The notes beneath the pieces are model-generated. The model did not search any database, was not told the DNA's origin, and was given only the letters and a program-made list of their open reading frames with translations. From IMG/VR virus record IMGVR_UViG_2529292831_000017, positions 1 through 40,514 of that record: a stretch of DNA of 40,514 bases; one strand, 5' to 3'. The stretch's first letter is position 1; each line of letters starts with the position of its first letter. Origin of the DNA: a virus (taxonomy: Duplodnaviria; Heunggongvirae; Uroviricota; Caudoviricetes). Below, in pieces: positions 23,251 to 37,856 of the stretch. The position numbers were made by a program, and so were the translations under genes.

Positions 23251-24933
23251 TTACAAATACCGTCTAACACGTATTTTATTAATGCTCGACTCATTTCCAA
23301 TTCTTATCAAAGCATTTCTCGCTTTTTCTCCGATGCGTTTCATTCTTTCTGAACCATTGCTATACCCACCAAACTTAAGAGCAGTAGCTATTATTGAATC
23401 ACCACCATCAAGAATGACTTTTTTAAATAAATCATAGTAGTCATCCTCTGAGGCAGCATCCAATATTTCCTCGTGCCTATCAGACCAACCATTCTGACTT
23501 GATAATTTTATTAGAACATCCTTTATAGAACCATCCAGATTTAAAGTAGTAGAATAATCTTGGATTTTTGACTTTAACTCAGCATCTTTTATAGGATGAA
23601 CATTCATGTAAATAGATTGAACATATTCCTTAAGAGCATCATTACCGTAATTAATAAATTTACTTATTAATTCACTTGCTTTAATATTTTCACCTAAATC
23701 TCTATACAGTCCGACAACACTATCCAAGTCACTTGGAGTTACATACTCTATCCCACCAACCACCGCTTGATATAGATTATCAATAACCTGATTTCGGTTA
23801 TCTTCAAATGAATTATAGAAAAGCTTCCATGCTTCAAACAGTGAACCTCGCTTACTATCACGGATAAGTTCATCATTCCTTAGACTTACTTGCCTTTGGA
23901 AATTGTTCATATCAATATATCCATGCCTTACCATGTCTATAAGGACTTCATCAAGTTCGTTTGTTTTTTTATAATCATATATAAGCAAAGTATTAAGCCA
24001 TTTTTTTTCTTTTCCATCCTCTTTTTCATCACGCATATAGATATTTCTCATATTTCTAATATACTCCAATGATGGTACATCTCCATCTGGAGTAAATGCG
24101 TAATGACTCCAACAATACAAAGTTAAGGAGTGTGCGACTTCATTTGCAATTTTTTCAAAATTAACGTTAATGCCAGGTAACAAGGCTAGCAAAAACCGCT
24201 CTATTTTTTTCAGTATCCTAATATTCTTAATACCCAGGGAAATGGAGTATTTGCTTAATAATTTATGAACATCAGAATTATTTTTATATGCTATAACTGC
24301 ACATTCTTCTGGAGTAGGATTATAGGTAATCTCTCTATCAATAACCTTTTCTTTATAAGTGGAGTAGTCATCCATACCACTTGTCCCGTTATTAAGTAAA
24401 AGAACCACCTTACAATTTTTTTGTTCTTTCAATAAAGAAACCAACCCTAAGACATCTTTCACTTCTAAATTTTTACCACGTCTTTCTAAGTCATCTATGA
24501 CTACAATAACATTAGTAATTGACATAAATGACATTGACTCAAGTGTCGTAGTGAAATTTTTCAAAAAAGGTGTATCTTTTAACACACGAGCGGTCTTTCT
24601 AGTGCAGGATTCAAGAAGCCCCTTTGCATTTTGTGTTGCTGTTTTTAAATTAGGTTTGTTTCCAATGAAATCTTTCGTAATTGTATTTTCAAAGATGGAG
24701 TATTTTAATGCGTCCAATGAATTAACACCAAAAAGAGAGACGTAACTATATCTATTAAATGCAATCTTATTTTTATTTTCCTTTAAGAAAGCATTCCAAG
24801 TATAGGTTTTCCCAATCCCCCACTCACCCTGAATAGCCATTACCTCAGGTTCTGCAGATGAAATAAAGTCTGACAACTGTTCTTTAATATAGTCTAATGA
24901 CATGTACATTCTCCGAGATAGATAGTCATCCAT
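23251..24933 (-). CDS. Accessory gene: KAP-family-like P-loop NTPase (560 aa)
   Basis: Walker A GEWGIGKT and Walker B VIVVIDDLERR (the GxWGxGK / hhhhDDLDR pattern of KAP NTPases); very AT-rich; lies between cos and Q. Confidence 0.6.
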   Translation of the reverse strand: MDDYLSRRMYMSLDYIKEQLSDFISSAEPEVMAIQGEWGIGKTYTWNAFLKENKNKIAFNRYSYVSLFGVNSLDALKYSIFENTITKDFIGNKPNLKTATQNAKGLLESCTRKTARVLKDTPFLKNFTTTLESMSFMSITNVIVVIDDLERRGKNLEVKDVLGLVSLLKEQKNCKVVLLLNNGTSGMDDYSTYKEKVIDREITYNPTPEECAVIAYKNNSDVHKLLSKYSISLGIKNIRILKKIERFLLALLPGINVNFEKIANEVAHSLTLYCWSHYAFTPDGDVPSLEYIRNMRNIYMRDEKEDGKEKKWLNTLLIYDYKKTNELDEVLIDMVRHGYIDMNNFQRQVSLRNDELIRDSKRGSLFEAWKLFYNSFEDNRNQVIDNLYQAVVGGIEYVTPSDLDSVVGLYRDLGENIKASELISKFINYGNDALKEYVQSIYMNVHPIKDAELKSKIQDYSTTLNLDGSIKDVLIKLSSQNGWSDRHEEILDAASEDDYYDLFKKVILDGGDSIIATALKFGGYSNGSERMKRIGEKARNALIRIGNESSINKIRVRRYL

Positions 24934-25032: not shown

Positions 25033-25057
25033 GCAAAATCCCGCCACTCCTGGCGGG
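25033..25057 (-). terminator. Rho-independent terminator downstream of the 203-aa membrane protein gene
   Basis: CCCGCCA / TGGCGGG stem with a T-run on the - strand (ATTTTGC). Confidence 0.5.
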
Positions 25058-25149: not shown

Positions 25150-25761
25150 CTACGTAACCACAGTTAATGTGTGCATCCTGTCTCGAATTGCATCACACGT
25201 CTCATCAAAAAGCTTGGTGATGGTTGTATGGTTCAACTCCGCCTCTTTCCAATAATTTTGCCCGTCAAATTCTGGATCGCTATGCTTAAACGATATTGAC
25301 TCTGAAAGGCATTCCTTCCGGAAACGGTCCAAGATTATATAAACCTCTGGTGAGATGAACGGTTTGTTAGATTCAACACTTGTAACAAAAGTGTTAAATG
25401 CATCAAAAAAAACTTTCAACCTTCTAAATTTTCTCTCTTCAAATGGTTCGTTGGGGTCAACATGATCCAGCGCAGGCCTCAGCTTAAGCACGCTTTCTCT
25501 GGTTTCAAACATCGAATTCCAAATGAGACTATATGCTGATAACTCCTTATCAAAATACGCTTTCGTTACATAAACAGAATTGTCTAACTTAGCCTTTATT
25601 CTTTCATTAGTTGCACTCAGTTGTGATTGAAATTCAGCAATATCTTTGTTTAGCCGCGACTTATATCTTTCTAAATAAACTTTCCCGATCCAAACAAATA
25701 TGCCAGATGCAACAAAAGACACCCCACCCAACGAAGCCAGAACTTTAAAGACCAAATCCAT
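25150..25761 (-). CDS. Accessory gene: 203-aa protein with one N-terminal TM helix and a coiled-coil-rich body
   Basis: Hydrophobic N-terminus LVFKVLASLGGVSFVASGIFVWIG; GC below backbone; between the SOS operon and cos, where P2 carries tin/old. Confidence 0.5.
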   Translation of the reverse strand: MDLVFKVLASLGGVSFVASGIFVWIGKVYLERYKSRLNKDIAEFQSQLSATNERIKAKLDNSVYVTKAYFDKELSAYSLIWNSMFETRESVLKLRPALDHVDPNEPFEERKFRRLKVFFDAFNTFVTSVESNKPFISPEVYIILDRFRKECLSESISFKHSDPEFDGQNYWKEAELNHTTITKLFDETCDAIRDRMHTLTVVT

Positions 25762-25809
25762 TGCGCCCCCACCTGCAAAAATAGTATTCCATTATAAGCT
25801 AATACATTT

Positions 25810-26025
25810 TTAATCAAACAGGGGATAATTCGCGTCAACCTCATCACTTCTCTGCTCTACCCTAGTGACTTCCATCAAAAACCCCAGGCCGTCATATAGC
25901 GAAACGGGGAATTCCAGCTCAAGCCAGAAGCAGTCTTCATAGATGCGGCCCAACCAAAAACCTCCGCCACACTCCTTTGGGCGTTGAAAGAAGACCCAGT
26001 CGCCAAGGGTTAAACGTTCCAGCAC
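25810..26025 (-). CDS. Hypothetical 71-aa protein
   Basis: ORF only; position downstream of the DinI-like gene. Confidence 0.3.
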   Translation of the reverse strand: MLERLTLGDWVFFQRPKECGGGFWLGRIYEDCFWLELEFPVSLYDGLGFLMEVTRVEQRSDEVDANYPLFD

Positions 26026-26143
26026 CTAGCCCCGATAAATAATCTGGTGATTACTGTCTTTTTTACCCATGGCTAACGCCTCGCTACTCTCGTTGTTCAA
26101 CCTTGCTGACGTCAGATTCAAGTTCTTACATCAGGAACGTTCC

Positions 26144-26377
26144 TTAGTGCAGCCAGCTGTCGTCTTCCCAAACCTGTTGCATAATTTCCATCACCCGCTT
26201 TTTGTCTTCATCAAGCTTTAAGCCACTCAGCTCAACGCCGTTTGCCGACCCTTTACGGATGCGGATAGCGGTCTTGGGATAGATGGGTAGCAGGTTGCGG
26301 TAAAGCTCGGACTCCAGAGCGTCCAGGGTAGACTGGCTAATCTTCTGCTCTTTATCGATCATTATTTCAATGCGCAT
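26144..26377 (-). CDS. dinI: DinI-like protein (77 aa from internal ATG)
   Basis: MRIEIMIDKEQKISQSTLDALESELYRNLL...DKKRVMEIMQQVWEDDSW aligns with E. coli DinI (MRIEVTIAK...ALAGEL...EILQETWE). Confidence 0.75.
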   Translation of the reverse strand: MRIEIMIDKEQKISQSTLDALESELYRNLLPIYPKTAIRIRKGSANGVELSGLKLDEDKKRVMEIMQQVWEDDSWLH

Positions 26378-26387
26378 AAAAGTCACC

Positions 26388-26576
26388 TCAGCTGATGACA
26401 TCCATTGAGCGGTTGTATTCGTGGCTTCTGATTTTTGCCATGAGTTCATCAGTCAATTCAGAAACCCACTGCAGGGCCAGCCCCTTCTCTTCATCACTAC
26501 ACTCACTAGCCGCTACAAGCTTAAGAAAAAAATCAATGCGCTGGAGCTTCAAAGACTCCAAAAAATAGTCCTGCAT
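26388..26576 (-). CDS. Small protein (62 aa), first gene of the LexA-box operon; possible Tum-like N-terminal part
   Basis: Strong SD AGGAGG 4 nt upstream of the ATG at 26574-26576; the tracked upstream extension runs through the LexA box and is unlikely to be translated. Confidence 0.45.
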   Translation of the reverse strand: MQDYFLESLKLQRIDFFLKLVAASECSDEEKGLALQWVSELTDELMAKIRSHEYNRSMDVIS

Positions 26577-26619
26577 CTTTCCTCCTATGACACCGCAAAC
26601 AATACTGTATAGATAATCA

Positions 26620-26635
26620 CTGCTTATATTTACAG
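26620..26635. promoter_or_regulatory. LexA box (SOS operator)
   Basis: CTGCTTATATTTACAG fits CTG-N10-CAG with an AT-rich centre; an adjacent weaker half-site CTGTATAGATAATCAC at 26605-26620. Confidence 0.65.
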
Positions 26636-26729
26636 TATATAATAATCTTACTGATGTAAAACGTTTTTTTACGTTCATCAGCCTGATATGCCTGGTATTA
26701 TTAAGAGCACGAATTGTTAACCCGCGTAA

Positions 26730-29144
26730 TTAATACAGGTTCCGCCACTTATCATCTTCCTGCAAACGCTGGTTCCGATAGAAGACACGCAGGCCTGCTC
26801 CTGACGGAATACTGCCGCCGCGAAGGAGTAAATCGACCTCTTTCTCGCTGCCATCAAATCCTCTGGACTTCAGTTCATAGACGAGCTGCTGTCGTTGATG
26901 GTCTGTAATTCGCTGTTTGTAGTCTCTACGCCGTTTCGGTTTCACCAGGCGTAACCTTGCAGCCAGTTCCCGGCGCTCTTTTTTGTTCATACTGTGCAGG
27001 TAATCGTGCAACTCCTTGTCATCCATGTGGGTAATGTCCGTTCTGGTATCCCCATCAGCTGATTTGTCTTTCCCTTGTTGGTTCAAATTTTCAGCAAGGG
27101 GACAGTTATTGCCACGAGTCCAAGGGGCGCAAGCGCCCTGGTCGGCTGCCGCCTCCTGAACGTCAACGGCCTTACGAACCATTTTCCACTTCACCGCATG
27201 AGTGCAGATCTTGCCCTCTGCAATGGGTGACCAGATGCCATAAATACGAATACCGTGATCGCCATAGGCGGTCGGTTCTTCGTTGATTTCATAAGCAGTT
27301 CTGATGAGGTGATATTTGCGGGGAACCAGTACGCCGCCCTGCTTCATGATGTAGGTGGCAAAACAACCAGCATCAGCAGCAGCCAGGATTGCATCAAGGC
27401 GCGGGTTATCCAGTACCGGCGCACCTGCTTTTTTGTCCCCCTGTTGCCTTGCCGCCTGACCAGCCAGCAATCGCAGTTCACGGTAAGCCTGACGCCCCGG
27501 AATGCCAAAGAAGCGGAATTGCTGAACACGATGCAGAGACGCCCAGGCATTAACGTATTCAGCGTTATCACGCAGGGATTTACCCGTTTCCTTGCTGATC
27601 TCGCCAGCCAGACCACGCCCGTCAATGTTCTTACTGATGTATTTCGCGATGTAGCTTGTTGGCGTACCTTTGCGCGGGTTTATCAGCTCAGACTTAAAGC
27701 GTGGTCCCGTGTTATTACCCAGCTCCTCGCGGTCTTCACGAATGGCAAACTTACGCAACAAAGCAGTAATGGTGCGGCGATCTTTTTTGCGCATAAAACA
27801 CAACAGATGCCAGTGAACTGTACCGTCATGATGCGGCTCAGCCACCCGCACGCCATACCAGCGCAATCCGGCTTTGTGCATCGCCTTACGAAATGCAGCA
27901 AACATGCCGACCAGATAATCACTGCTTTGTCTTACCGTCGCATTTGTCCAGGTCGGGTTGGGCCTGCCGTTATTTAGCGTGGAATGGAAACGTGACGGAC
28001 AGGTGATGGTGTAGAAAACGGCGCAGTCACCGCGCATTTCCGCGATAAGCTCCAGACCTTTAACACAGGCCATCATCTCATTGCGGCGATGCGCAGGGTT
28101 GCTGCTGCTGGCGTTTACCACATCCTCCATGTCCAGCGTGTCGCCGTCTTCGTTCACCAGTTCATGAGAACGGAAAAACTCCAGTGACTTGCGGCGCTGC
28201 TCACGTTTATGCATCACGGCTTCATAGCTGACATAGGGAGATGCTTTTTTGCTGACCAGGCAAACAGCACGCAACTGATCTTCCCGCCATTCGCAACGCA
28301 TCTTCCACAATTTCCGATACCACCAGTCGGCGCACAGCATACGCGCCAGCGACCCCGGAATGAGTTCATAGGGCACGGGTTTACGGCGGTTTCTTTTCCG
28401 GCGGAGTTGCTCAAACGCAGGCGGTATGACATCCAGTCGCAGGGTTTCTGCTGCCACCTTTTCCCATGTCTTGCGGATTTCTTCTGGCTTAACATCATCG
28501 GTGGCATACAAATCGCCACAAGCAGCATCAAGGCACATGCTCATATGCGCAGCTACCAAGGTGGACAGGCGTTTCACCTGATCCTGACTCATTTCAGGCA
28601 GAATCAGCAGGCCATCCAGCCCTTCATGGCTTGCCATAAAGCGAAAAGAAGTGGATAGCTGACTGTCGCGTACATGCTCCAGCCGTTCCAGACATGGCTT
28701 AATCGTCTCACACAAATAGCGGGAATAAGCCTTTGGCCTGCCCAGGCTGCTGAAGTATTCAATACGTTGCATCAGCGGCTTGCTGATATGGGAAGGCTGG
28801 GCGTTAACGTCCGCCAGAATGACCATGTCTGGATTAAAACGCTGCTGCTCATGCGCCAGCTTTGCCCAGCTAATGAGCTTATCCTGCTCCATTTCGCGTT
28901 GGACAGGATCACGGGATTCATTAAAGAAATAACGCTCCCAGACCTGAGCACTCAGTGCCTCGCGGCGCAGCTGTTCCTGCTCGTTATCGGCAGCGTACAG
29001 AGTGATCAGGTTTGAAAGCGCAGAAACCGGCGCGACTTCCGCCGGGTCCAGATAAGGGTTAATGGCCTTTTTCGGGCTGTTCCATGAGAATGCTGCGGCG
29101 GCCTCGTTAAAGCCGCTGCAGTTGTTCATATCAGCATGGCTCAT
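26730..29144 (-). CDS. A: Replication initiation endonuclease A (rolling-circle initiator)
   Basis: 804 aa; contains the tyrosine motif [12 protein letters not shown] typical of P2 gpA-family initiators. Confidence 0.9.
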
Positions 29145-29998
29145 GCACGCACTCCGTACACGGCAGAACTATCCACGCCACGCAAAGGATCAAATCCCAC
29201 CCAGCAGCGCGCCCCGGAAACAGCGATGATTTCTGTTGCAGATTTACTCTCACCAGCTGCTACGCCGATGCTGCGTTTTGCCTTGATGTAGTGGTGAGTA
29301 AAATTGCGATACAGCGAACGGATCAGGGATGTGTCACTGTTAGAAACAATGACCGGATGTCCTTCAGATGCTCGATGTTCAAGAACGGATGCCAGGTGAT
29401 ACTGGTCATCTTCAGTGAAACCATCAGTGTGATAGCCGGAAAACGTACCGTCATACGGCGGATCGCAATACACCACATCCCCCGCCTTCAACATCGCCAG
29501 CGTTTCATCAAAGCTGGCGCAGATAAACGTTGCCCGCTGGGCTTTTTCTGCAAATGCGCGAATTTCTTTTTCAGGTAAATACGGATTTTTATAATTACCG
29601 TAGGGAATGTTGAAATGCCCGCTCTTGTTATAGCGACATAAACCACGGTAACCGTGACGATTGAGATACAGGAAATATACCGCTTTCATGAAATCAGTAA
29701 TTTCAGTTGAGTAATTAAACTCCTGCCTTATGTTGTAATAAGCTACCTCCCTGTTTGCGATCTCAAATAAAACTCTGGCGCGAGATATAAACGATTCACA
29801 ATCAGCGGCAACCTTTTTATAGAGGTTGATTAAATCAGGATTAATATCCGCAACCAGATAGCTTGGATAATCCGTCTCCATCATCACCGCACAGGAACCC
29901 GCGAAAGGTTCAACCAGTCGCGGGCCAGCAGGAAGGTGTTTTTTCAGTTCGGACATAATTGCGGTTTTATTTCCCGCCCATTTCAGGATGGTGCTCAT
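29141..29998 (-). CDS. dam: DNA adenine methyltransferase (Dam-like)
   Basis: [12 protein letters not shown]-terminus and catalytic DPPY motif ([10 protein letters not shown]). Confidence 0.85.
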
Positions 29999-30222
29999 AC
30001 AGCACCTCCGTTGTAATGTTTGCCTTTCAGCTCTGCAATTTCCTGACAGGTAATGCAAAGCTGCACACCCGGAATGGCACGACGGCGTGCTGGCGGAATT
30101 GGCGCTTCACACTCAACGCAAAGCACGCGGGACACGCCCGGTGTTTTGGCACGGGCAGCACGGATATGACGTTGGCGTTCTTCTTCAACTCGCTGCTGTA
30201 CGAGATCCATTGCATCAGCCAT
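29995..30222 (-). CDS. TraR/DksA-family C4 zinc-finger protein
   Basis: CVECEAPIPPARRRAIPGVQLCITCQ, the four-Cys motif of TraR/DksA. Confidence 0.8.
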   Translation of the reverse strand: MADAMDLVQQRVEEERQRHIRAARAKTPGVSRVLCVECEAPIPPARRRAIPGVQLCITCQEIAELKGKHYNGGAV

Positions 30223-32475: not shown

Positions 32476-33120
32476 ATGGAGTATTTGATGATCAACATTC
32501 AGGCAGGTCCCAATACGGGAGGTAGAGAGGCGATCGAAAGATTGCTTAAGGCATATGGATTCAGCACCAAACAAGCACTAGCTGACCATTTAAAAATTTC
32601 AAAAAGTACTATGGCAAACAGAAACTTACGAGATAGCTTTCCTGCTGAGTGGGTCATCCAGTGTGCACTTGAAACAGGGGTTTCGCTGCTATGGCTAGCC
32701 ACAGGCCAGGGTGAAATGTTCACTTCAGAAGATCGAGAAAAAAATCCCGTAAACGAGTCAAACGTCACGCTTCGACCACTTTCCAAAATCGTTGCCCCCA
32801 GCATTAAGCAAGCCGAATTGAAGAATGGGGAGTTGAATAACGAAGGGGAAGTCTTGCTTGATAGCAGCTTACTGGACAGTGAGCCCGGCAATTCATTGTT
32901 TATAAAAACGTCTACTGACTGCTTTGTAGTGGATATATCTGTCAAACAGGTTAGCAATGGTTACTGGCTTGTCGATATTGATGGGGTGAAAAGCATCGTC
33001 AAGATTGCCCGAATACCAGGCAACAGAATTGTTGTTCACCAGGACGACTCATCCTTTGAGTGTTCTGTTGATGATGTGGAAGTTGTCGGGCGAGCCATTA
33101 AAGTAATCAAGAGTATTTAG
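32476..33120 (+). CDS. cI: CI-type immunity repressor
   Basis: N-terminal HTH-like segment (KQALADHLKISKSTMANRN) plus C-terminal domain; co-oriented with and directly upstream of int. Confidence 0.75.
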   Translation: MEYLMINIQAGPNTGGREAIERLLKAYGFSTKQALADHLKISKSTMANRNLRDSFPAEWVIQCALETGVSLLWLATGQGEMFTSEDREKNPVNESNVTLRPLSKIVAPSIKQAELKNGELNNEGEVLLDSSLLDSEPGNSLFIKTSTDCFVVDISVKQVSNGYWLVDIDGVKSIVKIARIPGNRIVVHQDDSSFECSVDDVEVVGRAIKVIKSI

Positions 33121-33122
33121 TC

Positions 33123-34142
33123 ATGACCATCAGGAAACAGCCGAACGGAAAATGGTTGTGTGAGTGCTACCCTAACGGGCGGGACGGCAAGCGCGTGCGC
33201 AAGCAATTTGCGACGAAAGGCGAAGCCGTAGCATTCGAAAACTTCACCATGGATGAAGTAAACAAAAAACCATGGCTGGGGGAAAAGGAAGATCGGCGGC
33301 ATCTGTCAGAAGTGATAGAGCAATGGCACTCACTATACGGGCAGACGCTCGCAGACCCCAAACGCCTGATGGCGAAACTTAGAATTATCTGTAATGGCCT
33401 GGGCGACCCTATCGCCTCAGAGCTGACCGCCGGAGATTTTACGAAATACCGTGAAGCGCGATTAAAAGGTGAAGTGCGAAATGAAGATGGCGCGCTTATG
33501 TCGCCAGTTAAGCCCCGAACGGTAAACCTCGAACAACGCAACCTATCATCAGTTTTTGGGACTCTGAAAAAACTGGGCCACTGGTCAGCCCCTAACCCGC
33601 TCGCCGGTCTGCCAACATTCAAAATCGCAGAGGGTGAACTGGCATTCCTGACCCCAGAAGAAATTAAACGCCTGCTGGATGCCTGCGCGGATTCTCAAAG
33701 CCCCAGCCTGCTGATGATTGCAAAAATATGCCTAGCTACTGGTGCGCGGTGGAGTGAAGCAGAAAACCTGCAGGGCCATCAGTTATCAAAATACCGCATC
33801 ACTTATACCAAGACGAAGGGCAAGAAAAACCGTACCGTGCCGATATCTCAGGATCTGTATGACGAACTCCCCAAGAACAGAGGGAAGTTATTCACCCCAT
33901 GCAGAAAAGCTTTTGAGCGTGCAGTTAAACGAGCTGGTATCGACTTGCCAGAGGGACAATGTACCCACGTCTTGCGCCATACATTCGCCAGTTACTTTAT
34001 GATGAATGGAGGGAATATTCTTGTACTAAGAGATATTTTAGGCCATTCAGATATAAAAATGACTATGGTCTATTCTCATTTTTCACCTGAGCATCTTGAA
34101 GATGCTGTAACAAAAAACCCTTTATCATCACTAGCGATTTAA
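33123..34142 (+). CDS. int: Tyrosine integrase (P2/186 Int-like)
   Basis: C-terminal catalytic region HVLRHTFASYFMMNGGNILVLRDILGHSDIKMTMVYSH with the R...HxxR...Y signature. Confidence 0.9.
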   Translation: MTIRKQPNGKWLCECYPNGRDGKRVRKQFATKGEAVAFENFTMDEVNKKPWLGEKEDRRHLSEVIEQWHSLYGQTLADPKRLMAKLRIICNGLGDPIASELTAGDFTKYREARLKGEVRNEDGALMSPVKPRTVNLEQRNLSSVFGTLKKLGHWSAPNPLAGLPTFKIAEGELAFLTPEEIKRLLDACADSQSPSLLMIAKICLATGARWSEAENLQGHQLSKYRITYTKTKGKKNRTVPISQDLYDELPKNRGKLFTPCRKAFERAVKRAGIDLPEGQCTHVLRHTFASYFMMNGGNILVLRDILGHSDIKMTMVYSHFSPEHLEDAVTKNPLSSLAI

Positions 34143-34146
34143 CATA

Positions 34147-35358
34147 ATGAAAATTAATAAAATTAGTACCACAGATTATGTAGCAATGCTTAATGAAATA
34201 TTATTCGAAATAGAGTCCAAACCACTATTAAAAGCTCCTTATCTCGCGGGAAATAATATCATTAAAGATTTTAACAATAGGGTTAAATGTTACCTAGAAG
34301 TCATAAACAAGATTTACAGTAAAAACCCTCACAACCTTGTAATTCGTGAAATAAAATCAAAAATAAAAAGCACAAAAACACTCTCGGATAAAATTTCAGA
34401 AACACTTAGATTATATTTAAACGGTAAAATCAAAGAATCTTACCTAACATTTGATCACGCTATCACCAAGACAAATATAAATGACCACATCTATAATATG
34501 TCCGTTCCATTAAGTGTGTTTTGTCATCCTGGAAAACCTCTATTTCGCGTAAGAAAAAGCGATCAAATAATAAAAGAAAGGCGTGATATCTTTCATATTC
34601 CTTTTTCTAAACGTTATCTTGTGAATGCACAAAGATACTCAGTCTCAGGCCTTCCTTGTTTATATTTAGGAACCTCTATTTTTGTATGTTGGCAAGAAAT
34701 GGAAAAACCAGACTTTGATAAATTATATGTATCTTCATTCATCACAGAGTCTGGTTCATCACATAGAATACTTAACCTTGGTTATAATTTGAGATCAGCA
34801 TTGAACATAAACACCTTAGCATGGCTGTTAGATAATGATACTGAAGGAACTATGAATAGGGTCATTTCGAACTTAATTTCCTGGCCACTTGTGTTAGCCT
34901 GTAATTATACAAAACAACATAAAAACTCTAGTTTCAACCCTGAGTACATAATCCCCAACCTTCTTATGCAATGGCTCAGCAGCAATGAAAATAAGGGCAT
35001 AGCCGGTATCGCTTATCGCACGACTAAAATTCTCAATCAAAAAGATAGTGATATTGGTATTAATATAATCATGCCACCTAAAATGGATAATATTTTGGAT
35101 TCTGGTTATGATTACTGCCCACACTTACTAAGTGTATTTAAATTTACCAAACCTGTTTCATGGCAAGTATTTAGCACTTTAAACGTCAAGACCGATGGTA
35201 TGGATGAAGATAGACTCATAATGGGAGGACCAACTCCAGCATCAGGTACAATTGAAGATTTTGATGAATCGCTAGTGGAATATTACAATAATACCTCATT
35301 CAAAAAAGTTCAATTGTTAATTCATAAAATGATGAAGCATGATTATCTTGAGCCTTAA
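34147..35358 (+). CDS. Accessory gene: 403-aa protein with RES-domain-like motifs
   Basis: About 30% GC; starts 4 bp after the int stop; LFRVRK...QRYSVSGLPCLYLGTSIFVCWQEM and later GIAGIAYRTTKI...GINIIMPP follow the RES pattern (conserved Arg, Glu, Ser/Thr). Confidence 0.5.
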   Translation: MKINKISTTDYVAMLNEILFEIESKPLLKAPYLAGNNIIKDFNNRVKCYLEVINKIYSKNPHNLVIREIKSKIKSTKTLSDKISETLRLYLNGKIKESYLTFDHAITKTNINDHIYNMSVPLSVFCHPGKPLFRVRKSDQIIKERRDIFHIPFSKRYLVNAQRYSVSGLPCLYLGTSIFVCWQEMEKPDFDKLYVSSFITESGSSHRILNLGYNLRSALNINTLAWLLDNDTEGTMNRVISNLISWPLVLACNYTKQHKNSSFNPEYIIPNLLMQWLSSNENKGIAGIAYRTTKILNQKDSDIGINIIMPPKMDNILDSGYDYCPHLLSVFKFTKPVSWQVFSTLNVKTDGMDEDRLIMGGPTPASGTIEDFDESLVEYYNNTSFKKVQLLIHKMMKHDYLEP

Positions 35359-35387
35359 GTGGCGGCGTTTTGGCGGTAGAGTATTAA
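35359..35387. repeat. 29-bp imperfect direct repeat, copy 1 (copy 2 at 36317-36345)
   Basis: GTGGCGGCGTTTTGGCGGTAGAGTATTAA versus CTGGCGGCACTTTGGCGGCAGAGCATTAA (24/29 identical); each ends in the stop codon region of a cargo gene. Confidence 0.6.
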
Positions 35388-35391
35388 GAGG

Positions 35392-36345
35392 ATGCAGTTA
35401 CAAAAAACCTCTAACTCCATTATAGAAATAGGAAGTGATCTGATGAATAACATCATCTATACAAACGAACAATATGAAATCGAAAATCTAAGTATAGCCC
35501 TGTATGCAATTTTCGATAAAATAAAAGAAAGGATTTCCATCGCCGAAGAATCTAACATTTACACTATCAGAGATGTTGGTCATAACTCGGAATCTCAAGT
35601 TTGCAAAAACACTTTTAATAAATTAACGCAATTTTTTGATTCAAACATTCTTTACATCCAAGACTGTGAAGTCTTAATTTCATATATAACAGAGTGCAGT
35701 TTGGAACTCTCTGTTATAGCGCAACAATTTTATGAAATACTCTGGAGCGATTTGTTAATAACCACACCAGACAAAGATTTTAAAGGGATTTTAGTAGCAA
35801 AATCGCCAAAAACAAGCTTGCTATTTTCTTTGTTAAGCATGCTATTTATAAAAATGAATAGTTTGTTTGACTACGTTACTAAAATCTCCTTTGAATTATT
35901 AAAGAGTAACTTCCCAATCTCTAAATACAAGAAATTAATATCCAAAAATAAATTATACGGCAACTATAAAGAATTAGTTTTTTCGACAACAACGGATACC
36001 ATATTTGAAAATAGCAATTTTATAAACACTGTAACATCATTACGAAATCATATAATTCACCACGGTTATATAGATGAGCACCCAAAGGTATATGTTGAAG
36101 TGGAAAATGGCATTGCATTTGGGAGATTTGTACTATTCCCCGATTTGAATGAGAGTGGAGGACTGGAAAATTGCATTAACAGAACTTTATTCTATTCAAA
36201 AGAAACAAAGATTGATGAAAAATTACCTGACTTAATTAAGGAATGCCAAATTAAAGTAATTAACTCGTTGAAGGTACTAATTAAAGATCATGAAGCATTA
36301 GAAGATTCAAGAAAGACTGGCGGCACTTTGGCGGCAGAGCATTAA
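35392..36345 (+). CDS. Accessory gene: 317-aa protein with an Rx4H (HEPN-like) motif
   Basis: About 30% GC; motif SLRNHIIHHG parallels SLRNALFHNG in the 13616 ORF; the ATG at 35443 has the better SD (AGGAAG, 7-nt spacer). Confidence 0.5.
   Translation: MQLQKTSNSIIEIGSDLMNNIIYTNEQYEIENLSIALYAIFDKIKERISIAEESNIYTIRDVGHNSESQVCKNTFNKLTQFFDSNILYIQDCEVLISYITECSLELSVIAQQFYEILWSDLLITTPDKDFKGILVAKSPKTSLLFSLLSMLFIKMNSLFDYVTKISFELLKSNFPISKYKKLISKNKLYGNYKELVFSTTTDTIFENSNFINTVTSLRNHIIHHGYIDEHPKVYVEVENGIAFGRFVLFPDLNESGGLENCINRTLFYSKETKIDEKLPDLIKECQIKVINSLKVLIKDHEALEDSRKTGGTLAAEH
36317..36345. repeat. 29-bp imperfect direct repeat, copy 2
   Basis: See copy 1; a related sequence AGTGGCGGCAAAATGGCGACAGAC also occurs near attL (1107-1130). 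Confidence 0.6.
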
Positions 36346-36659: not shown

Positions 36660-37856
36660 GTGGCACGGACAACACGCCCCCTGACCAACACCGAAGTTCT
36701 GCGCGCTAAAGCGATGGAGAAGGATCTAACGCTGCATGATGGCGATGGCCTTTTCCTAATAGTGAAAACCAGCGGGAAAAAGCTCTGGCGCTTCCGTTAT
36801 CAACGTCCAGTGACAAAACAGCGGACAATGATGGGACTAGGTGCTTTCCCCGCTCTTTCACTTGCTGACGCCCGAGGGTTAAGAGCAGATTACCTTGCCT
36901 TGTTAGCCAACGGAATTGACCCACAAATTCAGGCCGAAGTTGCAAAGGAACAGCAGCAAATCGCTCTGGACAGTATTTTTTCAACGGTTGCCGCTAACTG
37001 GTTCCAGCTCAAAAGTAAAAGCGTTACCCCTGATTACGCAAAAGACATTTGGCGTTCACTGGAGAAAGATGTATTCCCTGTCATTGGTGAGATCCCCGTT
37101 CAGCAAATCAAAGCACGAACTTTGGTTGAAGCCCTTGAGCCAATCAAAGCTCGTGGGGCGCTTGAGACTGTACGTCGACTTGTGCAGCGCATCAACGAGA
37201 TAATGATTTATGCCGTAAACACTGGTCTGATTGATGCCAATCCAGCATCAGGTATTGGAATGGCCTTTGAGAAGCCCAAAAAACAAAACATGCCGACGCT
37301 GCGGCCAGAAGAATTGCCGAAGCTGATGCGTTCTTTGGTTATGTCTAATCTGTCTGTTCCGACGCGTTGTCTTATTGAGTGGCAACTTCTCACGCTTGTG
37401 CGCCCTTCTGAAGCATCCGGCACTCGATGGGCAGAAATCGATCTCGATGCCAAGCTCTGGACGATCCCAGCCGAACGGATGAAGGCCAAGCGTGAACATA
37501 TTGTTCCTCTATCTCCTCAGGCATTAGAGATTCTGGAAGTAATGAGGCCAATCAGTGCTCACCGTGAGCATGTTTTTCCAAGCAGAAATGATCCAAAGCA
37601 AGCGATGAATAGTCAGACTGCAAATGCCGCGTTAAAACGAATTGGATATGGAGGTAAATTAGTAGCTCATGGTTTGCGCTCAATAGCGAGTACTGCTATG
37701 AATGAAGCTGGTTTTAATTCAGATGTGATTGAAGCAGCACTCGCTCATAGTGATAAAAATGAAGTGCGAAAAGCTTATAATCGCGCGACATATATCAATG
37801 CTAGAAAAGAAATTATGAATTGGTGGGGAAATTGCATCAATAAAAGTAAGATCTAA
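36660..37856 (+). CDS. P4-type tyrosine integrase (CP4-57 IntA-like)
   Basis: 398 aa, GTG start with SD AAGGAG; N-terminal arm-binding-type domain plus catalytic region (HGLRSIAST...LAHSD...VRKAYNRATY); P4-family integrases typically target ssrA and tRNA genes. Confidence 0.9.
   Translation: MARTTRPLTNTEVLRAKAMEKDLTLHDGDGLFLIVKTSGKKLWRFRYQRPVTKQRTMMGLGAFPALSLADARGLRADYLALLANGIDPQIQAEVAKEQQQIALDSIFSTVAANWFQLKSKSVTPDYAKDIWRSLEKDVFPVIGEIPVQQIKARTLVEALEPIKARGALETVRRLVQRINEIMIYAVNTGLIDANPASGIGMAFEKPKKQNMPTLRPEELPKLMRSLVMSNLSVPTRCLIEWQLLTLVRPSEASGTRWAEIDLDAKLWTIPAERMKAKREHIVPLSPQALEILEVMRPISAHREHVFPSRNDPKQAMNSQTANAALKRIGYGGKLVAHGLRSIASTAMNEAGFNSDVIEAALAHSDKNEVRKAYNRATYINARKEIMNWWGNCINKSKI

What the first reader, a model, noticed from the sequence alone, without database searches (positions are those of the whole stretch)
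26144..26635. LexA-controlled two-gene operon that may be a split Tum-like antirepressor
A LexA box (CTGCTTATATTTACAG) precedes a 62-aa ORF and a DinI-like ORF. The two tracked frames overlap over 26388-26449. In coliphage 186 the SOS-induced antirepressor Tum has, as far as I recall, a DinI-like C-terminal portion, so this could be Tum split by a frameshift, a two-protein version, or a programmed frameshift.
Basis: partly seen in the sequence, partly recalled or inferred. Interest (0 to 1): 0.4.

Follow-up and report, generated by a model that had tools for sequence, protein, structure and literature searches.

The report
Two-gene Tum antirepressor SOS operon
This is the ordinary, already described DNA-damage switch of a 186/Fels-2-like prophage: a LexA-repressed promoter drives a small antirepressor gene (tumA) and a separate DinI-like gene (tumB), which are two real genes and not a broken or frameshifted one.

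Summary
On the minus strand, just downstream of replication gene A of a P2/186-like prophage, a LexA box overlaps a p95-like promoter. It is followed by a 62-aa gene (26388-26576) and a 77-aa DinI-family gene (26144-26377). The reported "overlap" is only 25 stop-free codons upstream of the DinI ATG. The genes are 10 nt apart, and the second has its own ribosome-binding site. BLASTP found no match between the 62-aa protein and 186 Tum. Profile comparison through intermediate relatives shows it is homologous to the Tum N-terminal half, in the same register (P=5e-10; reversed control 0.68). It is 97% identical to Fels-2 STM2728. The layout matches PSP3 tumA/tumB, described in the literature as tum split in two with the upstream gene as the antirepressor. 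Among relatives the relative frame of the two genes is +1, +2 or 0. Both genes are under strong purifying selection (dN/dS 0.02-0.12). TumA also occurs without any dinI gene. This rules out a frameshift pseudogene and a conserved programmed frameshift. The prophage repressor is 186-CI-type with no S24 peptidase domain, which fits induction by an antirepressor. The locus occurs in about 1,100 of 5,426 complete E. coli genomes. It is already known and of low interest. One side note: the operator is a colicin-type double LexA box.

The parts
26730..29144 (-). Replication endonuclease gene A (P2 gpA / 186 A homologue). The SOS operon starts just downstream, as in 186, PSP3 and Fels-2.
   Evidence: 804-aa ORF. 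The homologous Cartapus, Fels-2 and PSP3 genes are annotated gpA.
26650..26682 (-). Imperfect hairpin between gene A and the tum promoter. It may be a terminator or insulator for gene A transcripts. Its 3' arm contains the -35 hexamer.
   Evidence: RNA fold -12.6 kcal/mol, z = -3.0, 0 of 200 shuffles as stable. There is no clear T-run, so its function is inferred only. Lemire et al. note similar palindromes ahead of Gifsy LexA boxes.
26632..26660 (-). p95-like sigma-70 promoter: -35 TTTACA (26660-26655), 17-nt spacer, -10 TACTGT (26637-26632).
   Evidence: Read from the sequence. The architecture matches the annotated 186 p95 promoter: TTCACA, 18 nt, then TACTGT, which is also the first half of the LexA box. 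The -35 is conserved in Fels-2, SopEPhi and MLG42. The generic scanner did not call it, because the -10 has only 3 of 6 matches.
26618..26637 (-). LexA box 1, TACTGTAAATATAAGCAGTG, overlapping the -10.
   Evidence: Best PWM hit in the window, 18.1 bits. It is conserved in all relatives, which mostly score 20.6-28.8 bits. The window copy has A->G just before CAG.
26603..26622 (-). LexA-like box 2, CAGTGATTATCTATACAGTA. It shares CAGTG with box 1, giving a colicin-type double operator.
   Evidence: Second-best PWM hit in the window, 13.8 bits. It is conserved in Fels-2, SopEPhi and MLG42 (13-19 bits). It aligns with the double SOS operator upstream of colicin genes on Col plasmids.
26388..26576 (-). 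tumA: 62-aa predicted antirepressor, homologue of the N-terminal half of 186 Tum. SD AGGAGG at 26581-26586.
   Evidence: Homology to 186 Tum N-terminus P=5.4e-10, with controls. 96.8% identical to Fels-2 STM2728. dN/dS 0.06-0.12. Predicted helical hairpin, pLDDT 89. PHROG 698, 'unknown function'.
26144..26377 (-). tumB: 77-aa DinI-family protein with its own SD (GAGGTGA) and ATG, 10 nt after the tumA stop.
   Evidence: Pfam DinI E=9e-24. 41% identical to 186 Tum 71-145. About 90% identical by eye to PSP3 TumB. Full-length match to E. coli DinI 1GHH. dN/dS 0.02-0.10.
25150..26025 (-). Two downstream same-strand ORFs: 71 aa (PHROG 2100) and 203 aa (PHROG 26391). They may be co-transcribed, since no terminator was found after tumB. 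They occupy the position of 186 orf97 but are unrelated to it.
   Evidence: ORFs. PHROG hits of unknown function. No similarity to 186 Orf97. The only terminator-like site downstream is at 25040-25057. The fold after tumB is not significant.
32476..33120 (+). cI: 186-type immunity repressor, the presumed target of TumA.
   Evidence: 30% identical to 186 CI, E=8e-35. Pfam Phage_CI_repr plus Phage_CI_C, with no S24 peptidase domain. Neighbouring apl-like, cII (71% to 186 CII) and int genes.

Best explanation
The locus is the SOS-induction operon of a 186/Fels-2-like P2-family prophage, in its two-gene form (tumA-tumB, as in PSP3 and Fels-2).

Proposed mechanism:
1. In the lysogen, host LexA binds a double operator that overlaps the -10 of a p95-like promoter downstream of replication gene A. 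This keeps the operon silent.
2. DNA damage leads to LexA self-cleavage, and the operon is transcribed.
3. TumA, a 62-aa two-helix protein homologous to the N-terminal half of 186 Tum, binds the 186-type CI repressor. CI has no self-cleavage domain. TumA binding stops CI from holding its operators, so the lytic promoter fires and the prophage is induced.
4. TumB is translated independently from its own ribosome-binding site. It is a DinI homologue that probably binds RecA filaments and tunes the SOS signal. It is dispensable for antirepression.

Shown here: gene structure, homology, the conserved LexA operator, purifying selection, and the 186-type switch.

Inferred from 186, PSP3 and Fels-2: LexA binding, TumA-CI binding, inducibility, and the TumB role.
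For: Position and layout are the same as 186 p95-tum, PSP3 tumA-tumB and Fels-2 STM2728/STM2726.1.

Homology:
- TumA family against 186 Tum N-terminal family: hhalign Prob 96.6, P=5.4e-10, residues 3-45 to 3-45.
- A Yersinia phage 'tum protein' bridges both families (P=2e-12 and 4e-11), and the reversed control gives P=0.68.
- phmmer of the Tum N-terminus hits distant TumA relatives at about 1e-10.
- TumB is a DinI-family protein.

Regulation and coding:
- A LexA box is conserved upstream of tumA in all 12 loci compared.
- dN/dS is 0.02-0.12 for both genes. In the last 21 tumA codons, changes fall mainly on tumA's third codon positions.

TumA as an autonomous unit:
- It stands alone without dinI in ESSI2_ev040, ESSI-2, YenM_06.16-2 and a 186-type 63-aa 'Tum protein'.

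Target:
- CI is 186-type and lacks S24.

Literature:
- Tum is the LexA-controlled anti-CI factor of 186 (PMC7708051).
- Fels-2 and PSP3 have tum split in two, and the PSP3 upstream gene carries the antirepressor activity (PMC3121763).
- The PSP3 record annotates tumA as 'UV induction of prophage'.
Against: - There is no direct similarity between TumA and 186 Tum by BLASTP. Identity is only about 20%, so function is transferred across a large distance.
- The functional evidence for PSP3 TumA is a personal communication cited second-hand. Bunny et al. 2002 could not be read.
- The same TumA accompanies very different CI proteins: identical TumA with 38%-identical CI in ESSI2_ev015 and ev040, and 98% TumA with 39% CI in 4LV2017. 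This is unexpected for a strictly immunity-specific partner.
- Box 1 in this copy carries an A->G change that lowers its PWM score from 23.9 to 18.1 bits. Box 2 lacks a canonical CTG.
Confidence: 0.85

Rival explanations
1. The two ORFs are the remains of a single fused tum gene, as in 186, broken by a frameshift. The locus would then be a pseudogene or a sequencing error, and the prophage would be non-inducible.
For: 186 has the two modules fused in one 146-aa protein. Here the DinI frame stays open for 25 codons upstream of its ATG. Frameshifted variants of 186-type tum do exist in the databases, for example P0174 and P0176.
Against: - The same two-gene structure, with the 10-nt spacer, SD and ATG, is in Cartapus and Fels-2. 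With 11-12-nt or 3-nt spacers it is in SopEPhi, ST437phi4.1, MLG42 and PSP3.
- The locus matches about 1,100 complete E. coli genomes.
- dN/dS is 0.06-0.12 for tumA and 0.02-0.10 for tumB at dS of about 1.
- The TumB start coincides with residue 1 of E. coli DinI.
- No fused relative appears among 87 representatives of the TumA family.
Confidence: 0.02
2. A programmed +1 frameshift or other recoding event near the tumA stop makes a fused TumA-TumB protein equivalent to 186 Tum, alongside the separate products.
For: tumB is in the +1 frame and is open across the tumA stop. A +1 shift at AGC-UGA would give TumA-AEVTF-TumB. In MLG42 and PSP3 the genes are in the same frame, separated by a UAG, so readthrough could also fuse them.
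Against: - The relative frame is not conserved: +1, +2 or 0.
- No slippery motif is shared, and the site does not resemble the prfB-type shift site (read from the sequence).
- The junction hairpin is not significant, z = -1.2, and is absent from SopEPhi-type junctions.
- Third-position bias shows that only the tumA frame is constrained in the overlap.
- tumA occurs without tumB.
Confidence: 0.03
3. The operon is an SOS-controlled accessory (moron) locus in which only DinI matters, modulating host RecA. The 62-aa protein is not the CI antirepressor. Induction, if any, would go by another route.
For: - TumA has no Pfam or NCBIfam family and is 'unknown function' in PHROGs.
- Its sequence does not co-vary cleanly with CI.
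- dinI homologues under LexA control are common in prophages (PMC3121763).
Against: - Homology to the Tum N-terminal half is significant, and the gene has the same position, promoter and operator.
- TumA-only loci keep the LexA box, whereas dinI is the dispensable partner.
- In Gifsy phages, dinI deletions did not significantly affect induction (PMC3121763).
- CI lacks a self-cleavage domain, so some antirepressor is needed.
Confidence: 0.08

Closest known systems
Fels-2 (Salmonella LT2) STM2728 / STM2726.1 locus
   Same: The gene order is the same: gpA, LexA operator, 62-aa gene, 10-nt spacer, 77-aa DinI gene. TumA is 96.8% identical. The double LexA operator is the same. CI is 72% identical. 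The literature describes it as tum split in two (PMC3121763).
   Different: The window copy has an A->G change in box 1 and several changes in box 2. The downstream genes differ: Fels-2 has a 243-aa ORF, while the window has 71-aa and 203-aa ORFs.
PSP3 tumA / tumB
   Same: It is a named two-gene version with the same position after gene A. TumB is about 90% identical by eye. tumA is annotated 'similar to 5' end 186 tum; UV induction of prophage'. The upstream gene is reported to carry the antirepressor activity (PMC3121763).
   Different: TumA is strongly diverged (hhalign P=6e-4 to the window family, 6e-6 to 186 Tum N). PSP3 has a single LexA box. The two genes are in the same frame with a 3-nt spacer. 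CI is 286 aa, with an NTD 48% identical.
Coliphage 186 Tum (p95 SOS operon)
   Same: The promoter is LexA-repressed, with TACTGT serving both as -10 and as half of the box. The locus lies downstream of gene A. It has an N-terminal antirepressor module plus a DinI-like module, and a 186-type CI/Apl/CII switch.
   Different: In 186 the two modules are fused in one 146-aa protein, with internal starts that also yield the DinI part alone. 186 has a single LexA box. orf97 follows in 186, and the window has no orf97 homologue. The N-terminal modules are only about 20% identical.
Gifsy-1/2/3 dinI-gfoA/gftA/gfhA operons (Salmonella)
   Same: A LexA-controlled operon pairs a small antirepressor with a dinI homologue. 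The repressor is not cleaved during induction (PMC3121763).
   Different: The gene order is reversed, with dinI first. These are lambdoid phages. I did not test similarity between TumA and GfoA/GftA. The repressor family is different.
Double overlapping SOS boxes of colicin operons
   Same: The 35-bp operator ACTGTA..A.CAGTGGTTATAT.TACAGTAT aligns with the operator upstream of colicin genes on Col plasmids. Colicin operators are reported to bind two LexA dimers and give very tight repression (PMC2994835).
   Different: Here the operator controls a prophage antirepressor rather than a colicin. The window copy is the most degenerate of those compared.

Membership tests
186 Tum / PSP3 TumA-TumB SOS antirepressor operon | Located immediately downstream of replication gene A of a P2/186-like phage, on the same strand | tested here: met
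   gpA is at 26730-29144, then the operon. The order is the same in 186, PSP3, Fels-2 and Cartapus.
186 Tum / PSP3 TumA-TumB SOS antirepressor operon | LexA box overlapping the promoter | tested here: met
   The site is the best PWM hit in the window and overlaps the -10 TACTGT. It is conserved in 12 of 12 loci. LexA binding itself was not tested.
186 Tum / PSP3 TumA-TumB SOS antirepressor operon | Protein module homologous to the N-terminal (antirepressor) half of Tum | tested here: met
   hhalign P=5.4e-10, Prob 96.6, same register. A bridging sequence and a reversed control support it. Direct BLASTP is negative.
186 Tum / PSP3 TumA-TumB SOS antirepressor operon | DinI-like module following the antirepressor module, either fused or as a separate gene | tested here: met
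   Pfam DinI 84 bits. 41% identical to Tum 71-145. It is a separate gene 10 nt downstream.
186 Tum / PSP3 TumA-TumB SOS antirepressor operon | Cognate 186-type CI repressor without a RecA-dependent self-cleavage domain | tested here: met
   CI is 30% identical to 186 CI. It has the Phage_CI_repr and Phage_CI_C domains and no S24.
186 Tum / PSP3 TumA-TumB SOS antirepressor operon | The protein binds CI and prevents operator binding; the prophage is inducible by UV or mitomycin in a LexA-dependent way | not testable with these tools
   This is known for 186 (PMC7708051) and reported for PSP3 and Fels-2 (PMC3121763). It is inferred for this copy.
DinI family (Pfam PF06183) | Full-length match to the DinI profile above the curated threshold | tested here: met
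   84 bits against a cut-off of 24.2, profile positions 1-63 of 63. Residues 1-75 align with E. coli DinI 1GHH residues 1-77. The score is below the NCBIfam equivalog cut-off (50.5 against 111), so it is a paralogue and not the host dinI.
DinI family (Pfam PF06183) | Binding to RecA filaments | not testable with these tools
   Inferred from family membership only.
Programmed ribosomal frameshift gene pair | Conserved relative frame and a conserved shift site across homologues | tested here: not met
   The frame offset is +1, +2 or 0 and the spacer is 10, 11, 12 or 3 nt. The junction hairpin has z = -1.2.

The most novel reading that the evidence does not exclude
TumA of this (Fels-2) type may not be an immunity-specific partner of one CI. 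It may instead be a broad-range antirepressor that recognises a conserved patch of 186-type CI, perhaps in the N-terminal DNA-binding domain. One SOS-induced TumA could then cross-induce several heteroimmune P2-like prophages in a polylysogen. Its expression would be held back by a colicin-type double LexA operator, so that it fires late and in an all-or-none manner.

What my evidence allows:
- Identical or 98%-identical TumA proteins sit beside CI proteins that are only 38-39% identical.
- Among the five phages with window-type TumA, the CI NTD stays 61-76% identical to the window's while the CTD ranges from 26 to 77%.

Phylogenetic confounding and mismatched, non-inducible mosaics are equally possible explanations.
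Probability: 0.25. Interest if true: 0.45.

Novelty: already known. Interest (0 to 1): 0.15.

Why it matters
The biology is not new. The two-gene Tum arrangement is published for Fels-2 and PSP3, and this copy is 97% identical to the Fels-2 gene.

The practical value is in annotation. TumA is labelled 'hypothetical protein' or 'unknown function' in RefSeq E. coli genomes, PHROGs, Pfam and NCBIfam. Yet the locus matches about a fifth of complete E. coli genomes. Recognising it tells which P2-like prophages are likely to be SOS-inducible.

Two side observations could be followed up cheaply. One is the colicin-type double LexA operator. The other is the loose pairing between TumA and CI. Both bear on the timing of induction and on cross-talk between prophages.

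Tried and rejected
- Direct BLASTP of the 62-aa protein against 186 Tum found no alignment. A first profile comparison using only close homologues was weak (P=7e-4). Only after adding the distant representatives did it become significant.
- Pfam, NCBIfam, PADLOC and PDB sequence searches for TumA gave nothing meaningful.
- Bunny et al. 2002, the primary source for Fels-2 tum, could not be retrieved by DOI or by a guessed PMC id. A search for tumA/tumB papers found none.
- I tested CI/TumA co-variation to locate the target domain. There is a suggestive link to the NTD (58 phage records with NTD 60-80% identical, against 58 with TumA of at least 80%). It is confounded by phylogeny and contradicted by the ESSI2_ev015/ev040 pair, so I make no claim from it.
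- I considered the hairpin spanning the tumA stop and the tumB SD (26382-26399, flagged as terminator-like) as an attenuator or coupling device. It is not significant (z = -1.2) and not conserved in SopEPhi-type junctions.
- I looked for a terminator after tumB. None was found.
- I compared the 203-aa downstream ORF with 186 Orf97. They are unrelated.
- I did not run a fold search on the TumA model, because a two-helix hairpin would match non-specifically.

Full report
**Context.** The window is a P2-family prophage in the reverse of the usual P2 map. On the minus strand, the replication endonuclease gene A (26730-29144, 804 aa) is followed by the region in question. The closest phage records are Escherichia phage Cartapus (97% over 800 bp), many Klebsiella P2-like prophages, Fels-2 and relatives. 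The lysogeny switch is of the 186 type:
- a CI of 214 aa (32476-33120) is 30% identical to 186 CI (E=8e-35), with Pfam Phage_CI_repr and Phage_CI_C domains and no S24 peptidase domain;
- next to it are an Apl-like gene, a CII 71% identical to 186 CII and an integrase.

**Checking the observation.** Read on the minus strand, the intergenic region after gene A contains, in order:
- an imperfect hairpin (26650-26682; z = -3.0);
- TTTACA (26660-26655), a 17-nt spacer, and TACTGT (26637-26632);
- the 20-mer TACTGTAAATATAAGCAGTG (26637-26618);
- AGGAGG, and an ATG at 26576.

This matches the annotated p95 promoter of 186, where TACTGT is both the -10 hexamer and the first half of the LexA box. The bare pattern CTGT-N9-CAG is no rarer than chance. 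A PWM made from 20 E. coli SOS boxes (sites written from memory) ranks this site first in the 40.5-kb window at 18.1 bits, against a training range of 12.6-27.1. An overlapping site at 26603-26622 ranks second at 13.8 bits. Shuffled windows reached a mean best score of 12.0 and a maximum of 21.5, so the score alone is not decisive. What settles it is conservation: every one of 12 tumA loci from different phage genera has a LexA box 18-48 nt upstream of the start codon.

The 62-aa gene is 26388-26576. The DinI-family gene is 26144-26377 (Pfam DinI 84 bits against a cut-off of 24.2). Its first residue aligns with residue 1 of E. coli DinI, PDB 1GHH. It is only 25 stop-free codons upstream of the DinI ATG, expected by chance about three times in ten (my own estimate). 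The two genes are separated by 10 nt that contain a ribosome-binding site (TGA-GGTGACTTTT-ATG).

**Is the 62-aa protein related to Tum?**
- The DinI-like protein is 41% identical to residues 71-145 of 186 Tum.
- BLASTP finds nothing between the 62-aa protein and Tum.
- A first profile-profile comparison with only close homologues gave P=7e-4.
- An exhaustive profile search of 1.84 billion representatives returned 87 relatives. Nearly all are small free-standing proteins of 35-104 aa. The more distant ones visibly approach the Tum N-terminus, for example ..ALERIEMITRLVSVGKC.. against ..MIERVEMIARLTAEGTC...
- With these included, hhalign against the 186 Tum N-terminal family (collected) gives probability 96.6% and P=5.4e-10. 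Residues 3-45 align with residues 3-45, the same register from the start codon.
- phmmer of the Tum N-terminus hits the distant relatives at about 1e-10.
- A Yersinia phage protein annotated 'tum protein' matches both families (P=2e-12 and 4e-11), and a reversed-alignment control gives P=0.68.

The homology is therefore established even though identity is only about 20%. AlphaFold predicts a two-helix hairpin (helices 2-23 and 28-61, pLDDT 89) with the conserved Cys26 in the turn.

**It is a known arrangement.**
- The 62-aa protein is 96.8% identical to Fels-2 STM2728. That gene is followed, after the same 10-nt spacer, by STM2726.1, which is annotated as similar to TumB of PSP3.
- PSP3 carries tumA (60 aa, 'similar to 5' end 186 tum; UV induction of prophage') and tumB ('similar to dinI and 3' end of 186 tum').
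- Lemire et al. 2011 (PMC3121763) state that Tum looks like an antirepressor fused to DinI. [quoted passage not shown] 2002 and a personal communication.
- Tum is the LexA-controlled anti-CI factor of 186 (PMC7708051).
- The 186 record also lists an internal GTG start that yields the DinI part alone. Even the fused form may therefore make a TumB-like product.

**Frameshift hypotheses.**
- Across relatives, tumB lies in frame +1 (window, Cartapus, Fels-2), +2 (SopEPhi, ST437phi4.1) or 0 (MLG42, PSP3) relative to tumA.
- The spacers are 10, 11, 12 or 3 nt. The open stretch upstream of the tumB ATG is 25, 14, 4 or 1 codons. Each tumB has its own SD and ATG.
- Both genes are under strong purifying selection at synonymous distances near 1: dN/dS is 0.06-0.12 for tumA and 0.02-0.10 for tumB.
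- In the last 21 codons of tumA, differences pile up on tumA's own third positions (11 of 16, 9 of 15 and 12 of 19).
- The hairpin across the junction is not significant (z = -1.2).
- TumA-type genes also occur with no dinI at all: in ESSI2_ev040, Cronobacter ESSI-2 and Yersinia YenM_06.16-2, and as a 186-type 63-aa 'Tum protein' followed by a methylase.
- The locus matches 1,126 of 5,426 complete E. coli genomes, where it is annotated 'DinI family protein | hypothetical protein'.

A frameshift pseudogene and a conserved programmed frameshift are therefore both rejected.

**Mechanism (inferred).** LexA represses the promoter. DNA damage removes LexA. TumA is made and sequesters the 186-type CI, which cannot cleave itself, and this derepresses the lytic promoter. 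TumB is a RecA-filament-binding DinI paralogue that may tune the signal. In Gifsy phages, dinI deletions had no significant effect on induction. Transcription may continue into two further ORFs (25810-26025 and 25150-25761, PHROGs of unknown function). No terminator was detected before 25040-25057.

**Two side findings.**
1. In the Fels-2-type loci the operator is double. Box 1 and a second LexA-like box share CAGTG. The 35-bp element aligns with the operator upstream of colicin genes on small Col plasmids. Such overlapping boxes are reported to bind two LexA dimers and give very tight repression (PMC2994835). 186, PSP3, ESSI-2 and YenM have a single box. The window copy is the most degenerate: A->G before CAG in box 1 lowers the score from 23.9 to 18.1 bits.
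2. TumA does not track CI neatly. ESSI2_ev015 and ev040 have identical TumA but CI proteins only 38% identical. Klebsiella phage 4LV2017 has 98% TumA but 39% CI. In the five phages with window-type TumA, the CI N-terminal domain stays 61-76% identical while the C-terminal domain ranges from 26 to 77%. This may point to the N-terminal domain or a conserved patch as the target, or to broad specificity. The sample is small and phylogenetically confounded, so I make no claim.

**Verdict.** The system is already known (Fels-2, PSP3). Interest is low, apart from an annotation gap and the two side observations.

Noticed in passing
window 26603-26637 (-); L004, L012, L015, L023, L024: The tumA operator of the Fels-2 type is two overlapping LexA-like boxes sharing CAGTG. 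It aligns over about 35 bp with the double SOS operator upstream of colicin genes on Col plasmids. 186, PSP3, ESSI-2 and YenM tumA promoters have one box. The window copy has an A->G change in box 1 and changes in box 2 that lower both scores.
   Followed up: partly
L011/L021 (ESSI2_ev015) vs L016/L022 (ESSI2_ev040); L006 (4LV2017) vs window 32476-33120: Identical or 98%-identical TumA proteins sit beside CI repressors only 38-39% identical. The CI N-terminal domain is better conserved than the C-terminal domain among phages that share the window-type TumA. This raises the question of what sets antirepressor specificity.
   Followed up: partly
window 23251-24933 (-): A 560-aa KAP-family P-loop NTPase (Pfam KAP_NTPase E=1e-8) lies between the SOS operon and the portal/terminase genes, at the P2 'old/tin' moron position. 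It matches the PADLOC candidate defence family PDC-S49 (E=2e-25). It may be a prophage-borne defence gene.
   Followed up: partly
window 26026-26071 (-), upstream of ORF 25810-26025: The gene after tumB is annotated as 86 aa in Cartapus. In the window the corresponding reading frame (MGKKDSNHQIIYRG) ends at a TAG directly before the GTG of the 71-aa ORF. This is either a nonsense mutation or an alternative start.
   Followed up: no
window 29141-30058 (-): A D12-class N6-adenine DNA methyltransferase (Pfam E=2e-75) lies directly upstream of gene A and overlaps it. 186 has the PAPS-reductase-like orf84 at that position.
   Followed up: no
window 34147-36345 (+) and 36660-37856 (+): Beyond the prophage integrase (33123-34142) lie two ORFs of 403 and 317 aa with no Pfam or PADLOC match; the 403-aa one matches PHROG 7835, unknown function. 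A second, P4-type tyrosine integrase follows (Arm-DNA-bind_3 + Phage_int_M + Phage_integrase). This suggests a second integrative element or island next to the prophage.
   Followed up: no
L013 (Escherichia phage 500465-1): In this relative, tumB has a stop after codon 4 (ATGCGCATTGAATAA) and tumA shows a short out-of-frame stretch (ERGWLCSGV). This could be a degraded copy or sequencing errors.
   Followed up: no
proteins P0174, P0176, P0196 (186-type Tum relatives): Some 186-type tum genes end in peptides that correspond to the linker read in another frame, after the T-rich run FSV(V)F. So 186-type tum is found fused, frameshifted and truncated in databases.
   Followed up: no
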